A stretch of 64,000 nucleotides of DNA, from positions 3,100,001 through 3,164,000 of the forward strand of contig CM030332.1 of NCBI GenBank assembly GCA_017654855.1, given 5' to 3'. Position 1 is the first letter of the stretch. Every line of letters begins with the position of its first letter. Below the pieces are notes generated by a model. The model searched no databases. It was not told where the DNA came from and worked only from the letters and a program-made list of their open reading frames with translations. Shown here one piece after another: positions 35,126 through 42,104 of the stretch. The position numbers and the translations under genes are program-made. This stretch comes from Podospora anserina (lineage: Eukaryota).

Positions 35126-36214
35126 TGGGTCGTTCTCGGGGATTCGCAGATCGAGGCGATAGCTGGGCCTGGCAAGAGGACCAGAAGATAGAAAGGAAGT
35201 AAGAGGATATTTTCAAACAGAGATTAGGAGTTTGACTTTGATATTTCTTTGCTGCTCGTTTTTTGAGCCACCGCGAAGTGGCTTCGAGTTTTGAGGTAAG
35301 CCACAAAGTTAAGTCTCGGGTTTTGAGAACTTTATATGCTTTGTAAAGTGAGCAACGATTAGGAATTCACGACATCTTTAGAAGCGTGGTACTCCAGTGT
35401 CAGGTTATCTCGATATATAGAGAAACTAGCTGTAACCGGAGCATGCATCCCTCGAAGCGGGTTTCCAGGCGACCTTTCGAGGCGAGCCTCGTTTTGTGTG
35501 GAAGGTGACCATCCATTGGTCCAGTTTGAGCTAATATGGTCACACTCTTTGCAGTAGGCATACCGGGAGGCTGTGTGTTTACTTGTTTGGACTTGGTCTC
35601 GTTGATCGGGGCGAAGCTACATTGAAACAATGAGCTGGAATTTGTTTATACAGAGCAAGGCAGATTCTAGCTCGAGGCTCGCTCTATTTACTACAAGAAG
35701 CTAACCAGTTCAACGTGGCAGGTCTTGGCGATTGAGAGGTCTCTGAATGGAAATGCGGTAAGTTTGAGCTTTGAGCTCAGCCCTGGCGACCGAAGTCCCG
35801 ATTATAGCTCGGTCTGCCTAGGCCGTGTGGGGCCGTCGATCCACTGCCGCTCCGGACGGAAGCGCTCAATGGAGCGCCGAAGCGGCCGCTGGATTGCCGA
35901 GGTTCCACTATAACAGAGGGTCTGTGCGAAAGCAAGACCTCTCTCCGTAGGAGAGAAGGCTACTTTTTCACCAGACAATATATTTCGACCGGACAGTACA
36001 CCTACCAAAATACACCAAAACTAAGTCTATTTTTTTTCATGAAATTTATATATTAACTAATAACTAGATATATCTACAATAGCTATAAATTAACTAATAA
36101 ATATTAAAACCGTAATAATTTATTTTAAATCTTAAAAATATAATAAAATTATACTATAAAATATATAGCTAATTTGTTATAAATTTTTATTTTAATTGCT
36201 ATTAATTTACTATA

Positions 36215-36656
36215 TGTGACGAACCCCTGTACAGAACCTCTGAAAGGGATACAGGTTAAAGGTAACTTCTGACAATTAGTTTGGTGCAGCTAGACAGTGC
36301 ACAACAAGATGTCTCAATATAAACACAAGATACCGTGAATACAACTGTAGATTGCATACTGCGGAACTATCTATCTACACCAGCCAGTTCCTCCGTATAT
36401 ATAGATCCTGGAGCCCTGAAGTGCTCGCCCTGCTACGGCCCCGATTACCCATAGCACATTGCATCCTGCAAAGTGCTCGTCGTGCTATGCCTCTGATCAC
36501 TCGTACCATCTTGCATCCTGCAGAGTGCTCGTGTGTCTTAGCGCCATAGCACTTTCGTCCAGCCCTGATTGGCTATCTCCTGACTTCTCTAATGATTGGC
36601 TAGGGACGTTCTGCGCCCTACATATAGCGCGGCCTGCTGTTGGGTTAACTGTGACA
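36215..36656. mobile_element. Solo LTR (442 bp) with 5-bp TSD CTATA, nested in the DNA transposon
   Basis: TGTGAC...GTGACA termini; CTATA at 36210-36214 and 36657-36661; abrupt GC increase relative to flanks. Confidence 0.88.
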
Positions 36657-36828: not shown

Positions 36829-37596
36829 TGTTACGGTTCAGGAGAAGCGAAGACGCCAGGACTAGTGAGACTAGAGCGGGCGGACAATTGGGGCCTGTGG
36901 AGTAGGGAATAGCACGGGTTAGGGGATCTAGAATTTAAGAGATAGATCCGTAGATCTATGGATTTAGAGCTAGATCCAAAGATCTAGAATTTGGAAGCTA
37001 GATCCAGGAGATCTAGGAAATAAAGGATAGATTCAAGTACAGAGGTACTTAGAATTCTAGTGGTTTGGGGTGCAGCTATAGGCCTAAGGGTATGTGTGAG
37101 GAAGTGGGGCTCACGGTGGATTCAGGGGTTCAGAAGTTATATATAAAAGCAGTTTGCTTCTCGCATTCTATTTTAGACAGGACATCGCCTTTTATTTCTT
37201 TAAATTTTGTGCCTTATACGCGTGCAGGCAATTCTAGCCCTCTGATTAGGCTAATCCGGTGCTTATTATATGGCTTGCGAGCCCATAGCGTTTTTTCTTT
37301 GTCCTACGTGAAGTGCGGCCTGTAAGCGAGTCACTGTCACGCAGGTATATTCATTCAGAGACCTGTTGAGGGTATATTTGTAGTGTTGTAGTTATTTTGT
37401 GTGTTTTCTCACTATTTCATTATTCGTGTCACAGTGCCGACCAAGGACTAGGGTAAGTGTCTTGTTATTGCGCGAGGTAAAGGAAAAGAGGCGCAAAGCT
37501 CCCTCCGAAGCGGTGTCTAAATACAGCTGAAGCGGCACTGCTCTTTCCGAGCCTTACACTCTGTTTTCCTATGAGCCTCGCTTTGATGCCGTGACA
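36829..37596. mobile_element. Second solo LTR (about 768 bp) with an internal approx. 28-bp x4 tandem repeat; flanking 5-mers do not match
   Basis: TGTTACGG...CCGTGACA inverted termini; TATATAAAA box near 37139; repeat GATCTAGAATTT..AGCTAGATCC at about 36925-37035; sharp GC boundaries. Confidence 0.75.
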
Positions 37597-38000
37597 TTAC
37601 TTTTGTATTAATTAATATCTGTATAGTAATTTTAATATTAGTACTGTTCATAAAATAGTTATTGAGAAAAAAAATTTACTTACGTAATTGAAAATAAAAA
37701 ATCTTTTTATTTATAATAATAATTATTACTTTTTGATAGAAAACTATTATTTTTTAATTTAATTTAGCTAAAAAATACATAGATATAGGATACATTAGAT
37801 TTTTTAGCTATTTTGGCTCGTATTATATTATCCAGTTAAAAAAAATAACCCTCTCTCCGTAGGAGAAGGGAGCTTGCTTTCGCACAGACCCTCGGTTAAT
37901 TGTGCCATGGATTTTCGACGTCATCTCATTCAAGGTGCAGCATGTCAATAATCTCAAATCGCCCTGCATCATCCAATTGCGCTATACTCAACACCCCAAG

Positions 38001-38287
38001 ATGCGTCTCTCAGGTCTCCAAAAAGAAGTCCTCGGTCTTTATCGGCAGTGTCTTCGAGAATGCCGCAAGAAGCCGGAGGCCACACGGAAACACTTTCAGA
38101 CCTTTGCTCGGTAGGATGCTCACGCTTCACTACATGACTTCAATACTGACCTTGAAACAGCGAGGAGTTTGAGAAAAGCATCAGTCTAGACAAAAGAGAC
38201 TTCTCTGCAATTGAATTCCTACTGCGCAAGGGTCGTCGCCAGCTCGAAATGTATGCATCACCAGGGGTCAAAGACATCAGGAAATAA
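38001..38287 (+). CDS. SDH6: Succinate dehydrogenase assembly factor 1 (LYR-motif protein); intron 38111-38160
   Basis: Spliced MRLSGLQKEVLGLYRQCLRECRKKPEATRKHFQTFAREEFEKSISLDKRDFSAIEFLLRKGRRQLEMYASPGVKDIRK, typical SDHAF1/Sdh6. Confidence 0.9.
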
Positions 38288-38612
38288 TCGCCCTGAATGC
38301 TCATGCTCTTTCTCGAGCACCTATAAGGAGTGAGCCAGTAGTGGCAGTAGTTACCACGAACAACAACAAAAACAGTTCCTGGCGCCTGCCACTATGAGCC
38401 ATCTCGAGTCCCCCTTCTCAGCTCGGTGTCGCAGTTTCCTCTCCTTTGCTTCCGGTTCCGTCCAATACAATGTTGTTTGAGGTCTGAGACTCCTCTTCCA
38501 TTTACCACCCATACTGTTCACACAAACGCGCCCAACAGCCATACCACCGGCTCCTTGCCTGGTTTTTTTTTTTTTTTGGAATCGAGTTTTTTTTTTTTGG
38601 AATATATGGACG

Positions 38613-41600
38613 ATGCCTGCATTCAACTTAACTTAGAAGGAAAGTTCGCACCGTCGGCCAAAGTTCAGACCAACGCCATCACCACCACCACCACCCAATG
38701 TCAATCCAAATGCTCCCCCCATTTTAAGTCCTTCAACCGCGAGTGCCAGTCCGGCTCATAGAGCTGCTCAGGAGGCCATACGGAAGCCTCTGAGCGAGTC
38801 CCTTAGGAAGCTACGCCGTGCCCAACGTGCCCTTACACGGCGAAAGAGGAGGAGCAGGGTTCGTGTATCGTTTAGACACTCTACTGGCAGTCGGACCTCT
38901 AGTACGGCCAAGCGAGTGTCGAGGCAGCTCAAGGCTGGTGATGTCAAACAAGGCGGCGGCAGTCCAAGATCCCGTCCTCTTCCCCCGCCGCCGTCGTCAG
39001 AGGAAAATGTGGGAGGTTGCTCTTGGAGCCCGTCGAAGCCACCGCGTCCGCCGCCGAAAGATAATATTCGAGCGAATATCAAGCAAGCCGGTGAAACCCG
39101 ACACAGACACGCGCCGCCAAAGAAACCTGCGCCGCCAAAGAAACCTGCGCCGCCAAAGAAACCTGCGCCGCCAAAGAAACCTGCCCAGCCATCATCACAT
39201 CCCAACACCAGGAACCAGACATCGGGGGGCCCACAGACTGAACACATTAAGGCTGTTTTCGACTGTACCAAAGGGAAAACACTAGTCGCAACACCAGTAG
39301 ATCACAACCTTACACGACGCCGAGTGCAGACTCCTCGCTATTCAGTATTCCCCAAGGCCCATCCCCGCCACTGCAAACGTTCAGTTGACCCAGTCAAGGA
39401 GTCGATCATGATCCGGAAAAGTCCGATTATTCAACAGCAACGGCTATCAGCTTTGGTACTGTCACCGCCAGCACAGACCACAACAACAACAACAACACCT
39501 GTTCCCCCCCACCAGAAACAACTCCCCGATGTAGCAAAAATTTCAGGTATGAACCCCAAGCAGCGGGAAGAAGCAGCCACAACAACAAGAACCGAACCCA
39601 AAACCGACTCTGAACGAACCCTTGACGAATTTGTCCGTGAGCTGGAGGGGTTTGCAAAGGCGTTTGATGGGACTCGTGGGTCGTTGTTGTTGTCTACACC
39701 GTCAACGACGGCTTCGGTGAGGACGGTGCGGGAGCTTTTGCCTTGGAGGGAGGAGTTTTGGGAGGTGGGGTTGGCGGTTACTTCTTGCGAGCAGAAGGGA
39801 CAGGTGAGGAGGTATGATGAGGGGGGAAAGAAGTTGGAGGGGAGTAGGACGAGGAGGTTGGATCAGTTTGGGGGGAGTAATGTGCCGAAGGTTGGGGCGA
39901 AGGGGAAGGGGGGTTTGGGGATGGGCGTCGTGAAGAGGGTTTCGTCTTTGGATATCACTTTGGCTGCTAAAGAGTTGAGTTTTGGGACGGGGGTTATGGA
40001 GGGGGTGGCCTCTTTGGGGAGTAAGGAGTCAAGTTCGGGGACGGTGGTTGTTTATAAGCCGAGACGGGGGATGATGGCTGATGAGACGGAGATGAAAGAG
40101 GAGGGCAGCAGCTCGCGGAATAACGAGATTTATTCGGGGTCGAGTAGTACGTCTGTTGAGCCGGTTAAGCTGGCGGCGGTGGAGAAGAGAGTTGTTAGGG
40201 CGAGGGCGAGTACGGTGTTTTTGGCGAATAAGCCTTTGCCTGTTGCGCCGGCGTCGTCTGTGGCGGCGAGTTCGGAGGATGTGGGAACTACGGTGGGATC
40301 GCAGAGTGAGGTAAAACCGGAGGGATATCAGAAGCTGGGGTCTAGTTCTGGGAGTGAGAAGGAGCCGTTGCTGCCGCTTTCGGAGCAGCCGGTGAATAGT
40401 TCCTCGGGGGAGAGGTCGGTGAAGGGGAAGGAGGTGGATAGGGGAGGGGGGGAAGATGAGAAGGTGTTGCCTGCGCTGCTGCCGCCAAGGACGGCGCCGC
40501 AGGTGAGGCATGGGATCAAGAGTGATTGGCAGGCTGGGGGTAGTATGGTTAGTGCGTGGAGGCAGTTGCCTACTACTATTGTTGAGGAGAGCGAGCCGTC
40601 GCCGGAGAAGGAGGTGAGGGTGTTGGGGGTGAAGGGGAGTATCGATCAGGAGCAGAAGCTCTTGATGGAGAACAAGGGTGTTAATCAGGCGCATGGCTTG
40701 AACAAGCAGGCGGGAGTTTTGAAGACAAAGACAGAGTTGGAGGCGAAGGGGAAGGGGATTAATACTCCTATGCCAACACCAGCTCAGGGGAAGACACCGG
40801 TAAAGGCACCATTTGTCATTAATCGCGGCGTTATCACCAAGACACCTGAGCTTCTCCTCCCCCAAACATGGGAACACCACCCCCTAGGCACGCCATCCTC
40901 CTTTAAGAGAGCGCTCGATGACGTGGTGCGAAAACTCGACGCGATGGAGGTGAGGGAATGCTCCTCCCCCTTTGGTGCAGTGTCATCGCCAACGACAATG
41001 ACAATCACAACAAGCAGCAGCACCAAAAAAAGAACGTCTTCGTCGTCTGGGAGCAACGGGAAAACCCCCTCACCAACAACACCGGCGCAGAGGCTGCAGA
41101 AGGCGGCGATGATGAGAAGGGAGAGGATGGATGCTGAGCAGCAGCAGCAACAGCAGCAGTGTGCTAACTTGCCCCCTTCTGCTTCTATTGTTCAACCGGT
41201 ACGTTCACGGGAGTATATACCGTATATGATGCCGCCTCCTGGAGGGTTGGGGTTCAGGCCGAGTGAGTCGAACTCTTCTAGAGGGTTGGGGCAAGGGCGG
41301 AATTTGAGGAAGGGGCTTTTTGCGGGGGTGGGAGCAAGGGAGATGGAAGACGACAGGGATATTTCTGATGAGGATGTGCTGAAGGGACTGAAGATTATTT
41401 GTGCGGCGTCGGCGGATAAGGAGTTTGATGGGTTGGTGAGGAGGGAGACGGGGTTGAGGTTGAGGAGGTTTTTGGCGGATTTGAGGACTTTTGAGTTTTT
41501 GGGCGGGAATGGGCAGGTGCCTGGGCTTGGTGGTGGTGGGCGGCAACAGATGGGGGTTATGGAAAAGAGGAGGAGGGATGTGCAAGTTGAACGGGAGAAT

Positions 41601-41759
41601 AGGAGACGGAGTATTAGGGGGATGGATGGGTTGAGGGGTCTTGGGGATGGAAAGAATATGAAGGAGAGTAAGAGAGAGGGAATGGGAGTTAGAGAGAGTG
41701 TGCGGGATAGGGATACTAGGAGGGGTTTTAGGGGGTTGGGGAATGGACTGATGAGGTAG
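38613..41759 (+). CDS. Large low-complexity hypothetical protein (1048 aa) with a premature TAG at codon 8 (38634-38636)
   Basis: ATG CCT GCA TTC AAC TTA ACT TAG AAG GAA..., then open to 41759; the next in-frame ATG is at 39408. C-terminal globular-looking motif DISDEDVLKGLKIICAASAD...ETGLRLRRFLADLRTFE. Confidence 0.7.
39110..39184 (+). repeat. Perfect 18-bp tandem repeat x4 encoding APPKKP
   Basis: GCGCCGCCAAAGAAACCT repeated four times. Confidence 0.9.
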
Positions 41760-41987
41760 TTGGGCGAGGGTATTGGTTTGGTCATGCAATGGAGAAAATG
41801 ATTTGGCCGGGTAATGGTAGTTTTAGGATAGAAATAAAGGCTTTTGCATATATACACTGCGCAACGGGAATGATACTTGCTGGAGTGCTCTATGGTGTTT
41901 TAGTGCCCCTGAATGCTGCATCAACAGTGCGATGGAGAGAGCGGCCAATGTGTAGCTTGGGTTTGTTTAGTAAAGGCATCAACGAAC

Positions 41988-42104
41988 GGTGAGATGGCCG
42001 AGCGGTCTAAGGCGCCAGGTTCAGGCCCACCTGAATTTCTGATTCTTCTCTGAAGTATCTTCCTGGTCTCGAAAGGGGCGTGGGTTCGAATCCCACTCTC
42101 ATCA
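41988..42104 (+). tRNA. tRNA-Leu(CAG) with an approx. 35-nt intron and long variable arm
   Basis: GGTGAGATGGCCGAGCGGTCTAAGGCG, anticodon arm CCAGG-TTCAGG[intron]T-CCTGG, variable arm TCTCGAAAGGGG, GTGGGTTCGAATCCCAC, acceptor TCTCATCA, downstream T-run. Confidence 0.92.

What the first reader, a model, noticed from the sequence alone, without database searches (positions are those of the whole stretch)
38613..41759. 1048-aa gene switched off by a premature UAG at codon 8
Seen: ATG at 38613 with A at -3, then M-P-A-F-N-L-T-TAG-K-E-S-S-H-R-R-P-K-F-R...; the frame is then open for 1040 codons. The next in-frame ATG is 265 codons downstream (39408), so the long ORF lacks a natural start unless the TAG is decoded. 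The context ACT TAG AAG fits fungal editing preferences. Established: 'premature stop codon restoration' by A-to-I editing gates sexual-stage genes such as F. graminearum PUK1. Inference: in vegetative cells the mRNA makes only a 7-aa peptide, and editing of A38635 turns on the full protein. Automated annotation would truncate its N-terminus.
Basis: partly seen in the sequence, partly recalled or inferred. Interest (0 to 1): 0.8.

Follow-up and report, generated by a model that had tools for sequence, protein, structure and literature searches.

The report
Conserved early stop codon gating a Podospora gene
A long Podospora gene really is interrupted by a stop codon at its eighth codon, at a spot where related fungi have tryptophan, which fits the known fungal trick of repairing such stops by RNA editing during sexual development, although the editing itself was not seen here.

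Summary
ATG 38613 is followed by six sense codons, TAG 38634-36 and then 1040 open codons; the next in-frame ATG is 39408. The gene is PODANS_1_8790 of Podospora anserina.

On its own the layout could be chance: 4 of 41 long ORFs in the window have an ATG that close. Comparison shows it is not.
- Two distant Sordariales lineages from metagenomes (31-36% protein identity) carry the same ATG, six codons and TAG in frame. Changes fall mainly on third codon positions on both sides of the TAG.
- Orthologues starting at the same Met have Trp (two lineages), Cys or Tyr at codon 8.
- The rival 5' intron (P. comata model, TAG as acceptor) fails. Its start codon and donor are absent in both other lineages. 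RNA contigs of four runs run unspliced through it.

Best reading: a TGG-to-TAG premature stop restored by sexual-stage A-to-I editing, a new member of the known class of premature-stop-correction (PSC) pseudogenes. Editing itself is not shown: the four RNA runs, of unknown stage, carry A at 38635. Confidence 0.6, interest moderate.

The parts
38613..38633 (+). Family-conserved start codon plus six sense codons (M-P-A-F-N-L-T)
   Evidence: Identical ATG and frame in L001 (9977) and L007 (1422). The 24 nt are 92-96% identical, against 40-67% for the 15 nt upstream. Orthologue proteins start MP.F.L..
38634..38636 (+). In-frame TAG at codon 8; A38635 is the presumed edited base
   Evidence: TAG at the same codon in L001/L002 and L007. 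W in P0165/P0188 and P0088, C in P0080, Y in P0061. A, not G, in RNA contigs of 4 of 4 runs.
38637..41759 (+). Body of the ORF (1040 codons plus stop TAG 41757-59); mostly disordered protein with conserved blocks, no Pfam family
   Evidence: 402 homologues at E<=1e-3. The Atlas model of orthologue P0004 has pLDDT 0.42.
39408..39410 (+). ATG used as start by the published P. anserina model (PODANS_1_8790, 673 aa) and by a 783-aa Logan-derived call
   Evidence: P0192 and P0193 begin MIRKSPIIQQ, identical to the window from this ATG.
38482..38636 (+). Stretch treated as a 155-nt intron by the P. comata-type model (exon 1 = ATG 38470-38481, MLFE); rejected here
   Evidence: P0001 starts MLFE then KGSPH. 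No such joint in contigs of 4 runs, which run through it. The ATG and the GT donor are absent in L001 and L007.
38545..38612 (+). Conserved upstream element: T-run, GGAATCGA, T-run, GGAATA, just before the start codon (promoter or 5' leader; role unknown)
   Evidence: Alignments A2 and A4.
38001..38287 (+). Upstream neighbour: LYR-family gene (exons 38001-38110 and 38161-38287), syntenic in all lineages seen and often wrongly fused to this gene
   Evidence: Pfam PF05347. Intron 38111-38160 is spliced in 4 of 4 RNA runs. The same gene lies upstream in L001 and L007. Fused models: P0010, P0096, P0163, P0194, P0040, P0059.

Best explanation
The gene (PODANS_1_8790 of Podospora anserina) encodes a protein of about 1048 residues, largely disordered, whose true start is ATG 38613. 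Codon 8 was an ancestral sense codon, most likely TGG (Trp), and is now TAG. The unedited mRNA can give only the 7-residue peptide MPAFNLT. The full protein is made when A38635 is deaminated to inosine, so that UAG is read as UGG. This would be done by the ADAT-type (Tad2/Tad3) mRNA-editing system that Sordariomycetes switch on during fruiting-body development. The gene is therefore a 'premature stop correction' (PSC) pseudogene with its switch at the very start of the ORF.

Shown here: the ORF architecture, its conservation, the sense codon in orthologues, and the failure of the intron model.

Inferred: that editing, rather than another recoding route, bypasses the TAG, and that this is specific to the sexual stage.
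For: 1. Three DNA lineages share ATG, six codons and TAG in frame with the ORF: the window, L001/L002 and L007.
2. L001 against L007 over 23 codons from the ATG: differences by codon position are 2/1/9, with 8 synonymous and 3 non-synonymous codon changes, spanning the TAG.
3. Indels after the TAG are 18 and 15 nt; indels before the ATG are 5, 6 and 8 nt.
4. In alignment A3 (7 N-termini), M1, F4, L6, K9 and S11 are invariant. Position 8 is TAG in 3, W in 2 (P0165, P0088), C in 1 and Y in 1. All are one base from TGG or TAG, the pattern Qi et al. 2024 report for PSC sites (PMC10776026, section 9 read).
5. The 257 codons before the first internal ATG include blocks that are invariant or nearly so across the 12 rows of A1, so they must be translated.
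6. Gene predictors dodge the stop in many species, by a splice landing right after it (P0001, P0003, P0163, P0059) or by truncation (P0192, P0002 cluster). Liu et al. 2016 describe this as typical of edited stops (PMC4817773, passages read).
7. A-to-I editing of UAG in perithecia is documented in the Sordariales N. crassa and S. macrospora (review PMC11156358, passages read). ADAT genes are differentially expressed in P. anserina sexual development (bioRxiv 10.1101/2024.12.09.627484, passage read).
8. In F. graminearum, 50 of 71 PSC pseudogenes encode disordered proteins and 43 of 71 hypothetical ones (PMC10776026, section 6). This protein is of that kind.
9. The target A lies in a small hairpin loop in the MFE fold of all three lineages.
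Against: - No edited transcript was seen. Contigs of 4 of 4 RNA-like runs from 4 studies carry A at 38635. Their developmental stage is unknown, and contigs hide minority variants.
- The hairpin is not more stable than shuffled sequence (z -1.19, +0.27, +1.35) and shows no covariation, because the sequence hardly varies.
- U at -1 and G at +1 come with any TAG.
- I found no genome-wide editing survey of P. anserina itself.
- The W-bearing orthologues are unnamed metagenome or ENA gene calls whose DNA I could not read.
- Orthology to any of the 71 F. graminearum PSC genes could not be checked.
Confidence: 0.6

Rival explanations
1. The TAG is the 3' splice acceptor of a 5' intron. Translation starts in an upstream exon: ATG 38470 (MLFE) with donor GT 38482, as in the P. 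comata model, or an ATG inside the LYR gene using that gene's donor, as in the C. samala model. The TAG is then never in the mature ORF.
For: GT at 38482 and AG at 38635-36 join in frame. P0001 (P. comata) and P0003 (C. samala) are built this way. A TTAAC branch-like motif lies just before the AG (consensus recalled). Contigs can hide minor isoforms (text).
Against: The joints table of 4 of 4 RNA runs has no joint at 38481|38637 or 38110|38637, although the neighbouring LYR intron is spliced in all four. Contigs of X1, X3 and X5 run straight from 38160 to 39110. The ATG at 38470 and its GT donor are absent at the aligned place in L001 and L007. The LYR +1-frame ATG route meets a TGA in L007 (read). 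The 24 nt before the TAG are conserved as an ATG-headed in-frame coding stretch, and W-bearing orthologues read straight through. The donor GTCTGA is a poor match to the fungal consensus (recalled).
Confidence: 0.1
2. The TAG is decoded without editing, by programmed translational readthrough (near-cognate tRNA). A small constitutive amount of full-length protein results, with an unpredictable residue at position 8.
For: The architecture (conserved in-frame stop in a conserved ORF) fits any recoding route. The unedited transcript is present in 4 of 4 RNA runs.
Against: The 3' context UAG-AAG-GRA does not match the known leaky contexts, UGA-CUA or UAG-CAR-YYA (recalled, not tested). The stop is always TAG, the one editable to a sense codon, in all three DNA lineages, and the orthologue residue is W, the product of editing. 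Editing is the documented route in this class of fungi (PMC11156358, passages).
Confidence: 0.1
3. The 7-codon ORF is an ordinary regulatory uORF. In Podospora the protein starts downstream, at ATG 39408 or at a non-AUG codon such as the ATA that replaces the Met of other species at ...EEV-M-xKPLSES.
For: Published models start at 39408. Many orthologue models start at the Met before KPLSES. The unedited mRNA is what is seen.
Against: The frame is open for 257 codons before 39408 and holds the best-conserved N-terminal blocks (PLSESL..RRAQRAL..RVRVSF). KGSPH.RPK right after the TAG evolves as coding sequence. W-bearing orthologues fuse the 'uORF' and the ORF into one reading frame. Podospora has no ATG at the Met position.
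Confidence: 0.08
4. The gene is simply dead (a true pseudogene) in the TAG-bearing lineages.
For: A stop at codon 8; no function or domain known.
Against: After the TAG the ORF is intact over 1040 codons in the window. It is intact as two ORFs (549+360 and 515+355 codons) in L001 and L007, with the break at the same place, which I read as an intron; I did not check the splice sites. It is 93% identical to P. comata. The same TAG is kept in lineages only 31-36% identical in protein. It is transcribed.
Confidence: 0.04

Closest known systems
PSC (premature stop codon correction) pseudogenes of Fusarium graminearum, such as PUK1, AMD1, FgAMA1 and FgRID (Liu et al. 2016, PMC4817773; Qi et al. 2024, PMC10776026)
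   Same: An in-frame TAG in an otherwise conserved ORF. Orthologues mostly have TGG, or codons one step from TAG, at the site. The protein is disordered or 'hypothetical'. Automated annotation invents introns or truncates the model to avoid the stop. The host is a Sordariomycete.
   Different: Editing is not demonstrated here. The stop is at codon 8, so the unedited product is a 7-residue peptide, not a truncated protein. The TAG is shared by Sordariales lineages with only 31-36% protein identity. Orthology to any of the 71 listed genes is unknown: Table S1 gives no sequences, and the supplementary PDF could not be read.
CHE1 of F. graminearum: a conserved premature stop edited in hyphae and stimulated by oxidative stress (Zou et al. 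2024, PMC11169179, abstract read)
   Same: A conserved in-frame TAG that keeps a gene off unless edited, with the transcript present outside the sexual stage.
   Different: CHE1 is a zinc-finger transcription factor with the stop at nucleotide 437, conserved only among close Fusarium species. Here the stage of any editing is unknown.
Conserved upstream ORFs (uORFs) in fungal 5' leaders (general knowledge, recalled)
   Same: A short conserved AUG-headed ORF ahead of a long one. In the unedited mRNA it would behave like a uORF.
   Different: The short ORF is in frame with and directly abuts the long ORF. The long ORF has no AUG of its own for 257 codons in Podospora. In other species the two are one ORF with Trp at the junction.

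Membership tests
Fungal PSC-editing pseudogene (A-to-I restorative editing) | In-frame TAG inside an otherwise intact, conserved ORF | tested here: met
   There are 1040 open codons after the TAG, and the coding substitution pattern spans it.
Fungal PSC-editing pseudogene (A-to-I restorative editing) | Orthologues carry a sense codon, typically Trp, at the site | tested here: met
   W in P0165 (and P0188) and P0088, C in P0080, Y in P0061. Proteins only; their DNA was not seen.
Fungal PSC-editing pseudogene (A-to-I restorative editing) | A to G at the stop in RNA of fruiting bodies, absent from genomic DNA | tested here: inconclusive
   A at 38635 in contigs of 4 of 4 RNA-like runs. Their stage is unknown, contigs drop minority variants, and no raw reads were available.
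Fungal PSC-editing pseudogene (A-to-I restorative editing) | U at -1, purine at +1, target A in a stable hairpin loop | tested here: inconclusive
   U at -1 and G at +1 are trivial for TAG. The A is in a predicted small loop in all 3 lineages, but z-scores are -1.19, +0.27 and +1.35. Preferences taken from PMC4817773 passages.
Fungal PSC-editing pseudogene (A-to-I restorative editing) | Host has the sexual-stage mRNA editing system | not tested
   Literature only. Editing is shown in the Sordariales N. crassa and S. macrospora (PMC11156358). ADAT genes are differentially expressed in P. anserina (bioRxiv 10.1101/2024.12.09.627484). No P. anserina editing survey was found.
Fungal PSC-editing pseudogene (A-to-I restorative editing) | Automated gene models avoid the stop by false introns or truncation | tested here: met
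   P0192 (673 aa) and the P0002 cluster are truncated. P0001, P0003, P0163 and P0059 splice in just after the stop. P0010, P0096 and P0194 are fused to LYR.
Gene with a 5' intron whose acceptor is the TAG | Spliced junction present in RNA | tested here: not met
   no such joint in 4 of 4 runs, and contigs run through 38482-38636. These are contigs only, so a rare isoform is not excluded.
Gene with a 5' intron whose acceptor is the TAG | Upstream start codon and donor conserved in relatives | tested here: not met
   the ATG at 38470 and the GT at 38482 are absent at the aligned columns in L001 and L007.
Programmed stop-codon readthrough | Leaky stop context (UGA-CUA, UAG-CAR-YYA) | tested here: not met
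   The context is UAG-AAG-GAA, or GGA. The reference motifs are recalled, not taken from a call.
Conserved-peptide uORF | uORF separate from a main ORF that has its own AUG | tested here: not met
   There is no AUG for 257 codons, and the 'uORF' and ORF are one frame with W in orthologues.

The most novel reading that the evidence does not exclude
The TAG at codon 8 is an ancient fixed switch. It is shared across families of Sordariales and, judging from gene models that dodge the same codon, perhaps by Xylariales and Diaporthales. The roughly 55 nt around it are held almost invariant as the recognition element for the editing enzyme: 92-96% DNA identity where the proteins are 31-36% identical. 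The unedited mRNA, which is what ordinary RNA samples show, would be a parked, uORF-like state. Output of this protein would then be set purely after transcription, possibly also by non-sexual cues, as for CHE1.
Probability: 0.3. Interest if true: 0.6.

Novelty: new member of a known kind. Interest (0 to 1): 0.45.

Why it matters
It corrects the start of a gene family that is misannotated across Sordariomycetes: truncated, given false introns, or fused to the neighbouring LYR gene. It also gives Podospora anserina, a genetic model for sexual development, a clean candidate for an editing-gated gene. Because the stop is at codon 8, the unedited state is a true null. TAA and TGG alleles would therefore give an unambiguous test of whether restorative editing matters. 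The deep conservation of the TAG and its flanks offers a natural substrate for studying what the fungal editing enzyme recognises.

Tried and rejected
- Whole-genome search: no genome is held for this window.
- RNA evidence: no listed holder is on record as RNA. The 14 'RNA?' runs are guesses. The four I laid behave as RNA, because the LYR intron is spliced in each. I laid 4 of the 20 holders, one from each of 4 of the 7 studies. They are contigs only, so starts, ends, minor isoforms and partial editing cannot be seen. In X2 the gene's first contig begins at 38587, after a gap from 38338; at depth under 4 beside T-runs this says nothing firm about the transcription start.
- N-terminal search with the TAG read as W: only P0001 among 125 candidates of 576-1834 aa.
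- Exact look-up of the read-through protein and of the 1040-aa ORF: neither is in the collection. The RNA strain differs from the window by a repeat length and a SNP, so a miss means little.
- Pfam on the protein: 0 families at E<=1. The UniRef label 'WH2 domain-containing' on sibling-species models was not reproduced.
- ESM Atlas: the window's sequence is not held. Orthologue P0004 has a low-confidence model (pLDDT 0.42) and no family.
- Hairpin: in a loop, but not stable beyond shuffles.
- Mapping to the 71 F. graminearum PSC genes: Table S1 lists IDs without sequences; neither 'Podospora' nor 'Neurospora' occurs in the tables; the supplementary PDF with the per-site trees could not be read and may bear on this.
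- Literature: no paper holds Pa_1_8790, and none among the 15 and 6 papers listed describes premature-stop editing in Podospora. The 2016 bioRxiv preprint 10.1101/059725 (passages) has nothing on an N. crassa orthologue.
- Earlier findings of this scan: none for this genome.
- ARAGORN missed the intron-bearing tRNA; Rfam found it.

Full report
**1. The observation**

The sequence reads gacg ATG CCT GCA TTC AAC TTA ACT TAG AAG GAA AGT ... The ATG is at 38613 and the TAG at 38634-36. The stop-to-stop ORF is 38637..41759, 1040 codons. The next in-frame ATG is 39408. This is the longest of the 41 ORFs of 200 codons or more in the window.

The layout alone is weak evidence. 4 of those 41 ORFs have an in-frame ATG within 8 codons before their bounding stop.

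**2. What the gene is**

A word-based search gave 11 relatives, all Sordariales. The best is P. comata P0001 (1033 aa, 93% identity, full coverage). A cluster of five shorter models includes PODANS_1_8790 of P. anserina S mat+ (P0192, 673 aa). P0192 starts MIRKS and is identical to the window from ATG 39408 over the 150 residues printed.

A profile search found 402 homologues at E<=1e-3, of which 150 were listed. Named ones span Sordariales, Coniochaetales, Diaporthales, Xylariales and Glomerellales. No Pfam family matches. An orthologue's Atlas model is disordered (pLDDT 0.42). The upstream neighbour is an LYR-family gene (PF05347).

**3. The intron rival**

The P. comata model starts MLFE and then KGSPH. 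In the window this corresponds to ATG 38470-38481, an 'intron' from 38482 (GT) to 38636 (AG), and then AAG at 38637. On that model the TAG would be a splice acceptor. I tested this in two ways.

(a) RNA. Of 24 runs listed, 20 hold the stretch; none is on record as RNA. I laid four, from four studies.
- All four splice the LYR intron 38111-38160, so they are RNA.
- In X1, X3 and X5 a single contig continues unspliced from 38160 to 39110. X2 has a contig over 38587-38889.
- The joints table has only three rows: the LYR intron, a 36-nt repeat-length difference, and one artefact.
- No 38481|38637 joint exists, and no letter other than A is reported at 38635.
- These are contigs, so rare isoforms and partial editing stay invisible. 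The stage of the runs is unknown.

(b) Conservation. A metagenome scan returned nine loci. L001-L003 (one lineage, close to Cercophora newfieldiana) and L007 cover residues 1-994 at 31-36% identity. I read L001, L002 and L007, and each has the LYR gene upstream. At the place of the window's ATG 38470 and its GT donor, L001 and L007 have neither. A second rescue route appears in the C. samala model: an ATG in the +1 frame of the LYR gene, spliced from that gene's donor. This route meets a TGA in L007 (read).

**4. What is conserved instead**

All three lineages carry cgATGCC(T/C)GCATTCAACTTA(A/G)CTTAGAA(G/A)G(A/G)AAGT... That is ATG, six codons and TAG, in frame with and abutting the ORF.
- The 24 nt are 92-96% identical, against 40-67% for the 15 nt upstream.
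- Between L001 and L007, over the 23 codons from the ATG, differences fall 2/1/9 on codon positions 1/2/3. There are 8 synonymous and 3 non-synonymous codon changes, on both sides of the TAG.
- Indels after the TAG are 18 and 15 nt. Indels before the ATG are 5, 6 and 8 nt.
- So this frame is read as protein across the TAG.

**5. The sense codon in relatives**

I scanned the 187 stored proteins by motif. Four orthologue lineages have models that start at the same Met:
- P0165, with its near-twin P0188 (ENA): W at position 8.
- P0088 (JGI metagenome contig): W.
- P0080: C.
- P0061 (Astrocystis sublimbata): Y.

In the alignment of seven N-termini, M1, F4, L6, K9 and S11 are invariant. Every state is one base from TGG or TAG. 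Qi et al. 2024 report the same pattern for PSC sites: TAG mostly derives from TGG, sometimes from one-step neighbours, and arises at various nodes of Sordariomycetes (PMC10776026, section 9).

Several annotated models enter the ORF exactly at the codon after the stop: P0001, P0003, P0163 (Cercophora sp. LCS_1) and P0059 (Hypoxylon crocopeplum). Others fuse the LYR gene further in: P0010, P0096 (Sordaria brevicollis), P0194 (Neurospora tetraspora) and P0040 (Cytospora mali). This suggests, without showing, that the stop is widespread. Liu et al. 2016 describe such false introns as the signature of edited stops (PMC4817773, passages).

**6. Mechanism**

The ORF is intact and conserved in TAG-bearing lineages, so the TAG must be bypassed. 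In Sordariomycetes the documented route is sexual-stage A-to-I editing of UAG to UGG by Tad2/Tad3 with stage-specific cofactors. It prefers U at -1 and hairpin loops (PMC11156358 and PMC4817773, passages). ADAT genes are differentially expressed during P. anserina sexual development (bioRxiv 10.1101/2024.12.09.627484, passage).

The product of editing, Trp, is the residue seen in orthologues. The target A lies in a small predicted loop in all three lineages, but the folds are no more stable than shuffles.

I therefore hold editing as the best explanation at 0.6. The rivals are readthrough (0.1), a rare spliced form (0.1), downstream or non-AUG initiation (0.08) and a dead gene (0.04).

**7. 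Against my reading**

No G was seen at 38635 in any RNA contig. I found no P. anserina editing survey. The W-bearing sequences are unnamed gene calls without DNA. Orthology to a listed F. graminearum PSC gene is untested; the supplementary PDF of that paper could not be read.

**8. Verdict**

This is a new, deeply conserved member of a known kind, of moderate interest.

Noticed in passing
window 37938-39887: In three of four RNA runs, one contig joins the spliced LYR gene to this gene without a break across the 325-nt spacer. Either the two transcripts overlap or there is read-through. Contigs cannot tell which.
   Followed up: partly
window 39111-39184: An 18-nt tandem repeat (4.1 copies) encodes PPKKPA. 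All four RNA runs lack 36 nt of it, and P. comata has a single copy. It is a length polymorphism inside the ORF.
   Followed up: partly
window 38563-38566 and 38709: All four RNA runs differ from the window in three ways: T>G at 38563, 3 nt fewer in the T-run, and A>G at 38709. The last changes Asn to Asp, the residue P. comata has. These are strain differences, not editing (-1 is A at 38709).
   Followed up: yes
window 38545-38612; L001 9935-9976; L007 1390-1421: A conserved motif lies just upstream of the start codon: a T-run, GGAATCGA(C/G), a second T-run, then GGAATA. It could be a promoter or leader element.
   Followed up: no
window 41757-41801: The natural stop is also TAG, followed by 13 open codons before a TGA. 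If it were edited, it would add a 14-residue tail (stop-loss).
   Followed up: no
window 41988-42104: An intron-bearing tRNA gene lies on the + strand (Rfam RF00005, 48.2 bits). ARAGORN, run in default mode, missed it.
   Followed up: yes
L001 11590-11650; L007 2969-2993: In the two distant lineages the ORF is split into two frames at the same place, presumably by an intron. In Podospora it is one continuous frame.
   Followed up: no
window 36000-36300 and 37500-37950: Two AT-rich patches (GC 0.23-0.27) lie upstream of the LYR gene.
   Followed up: no
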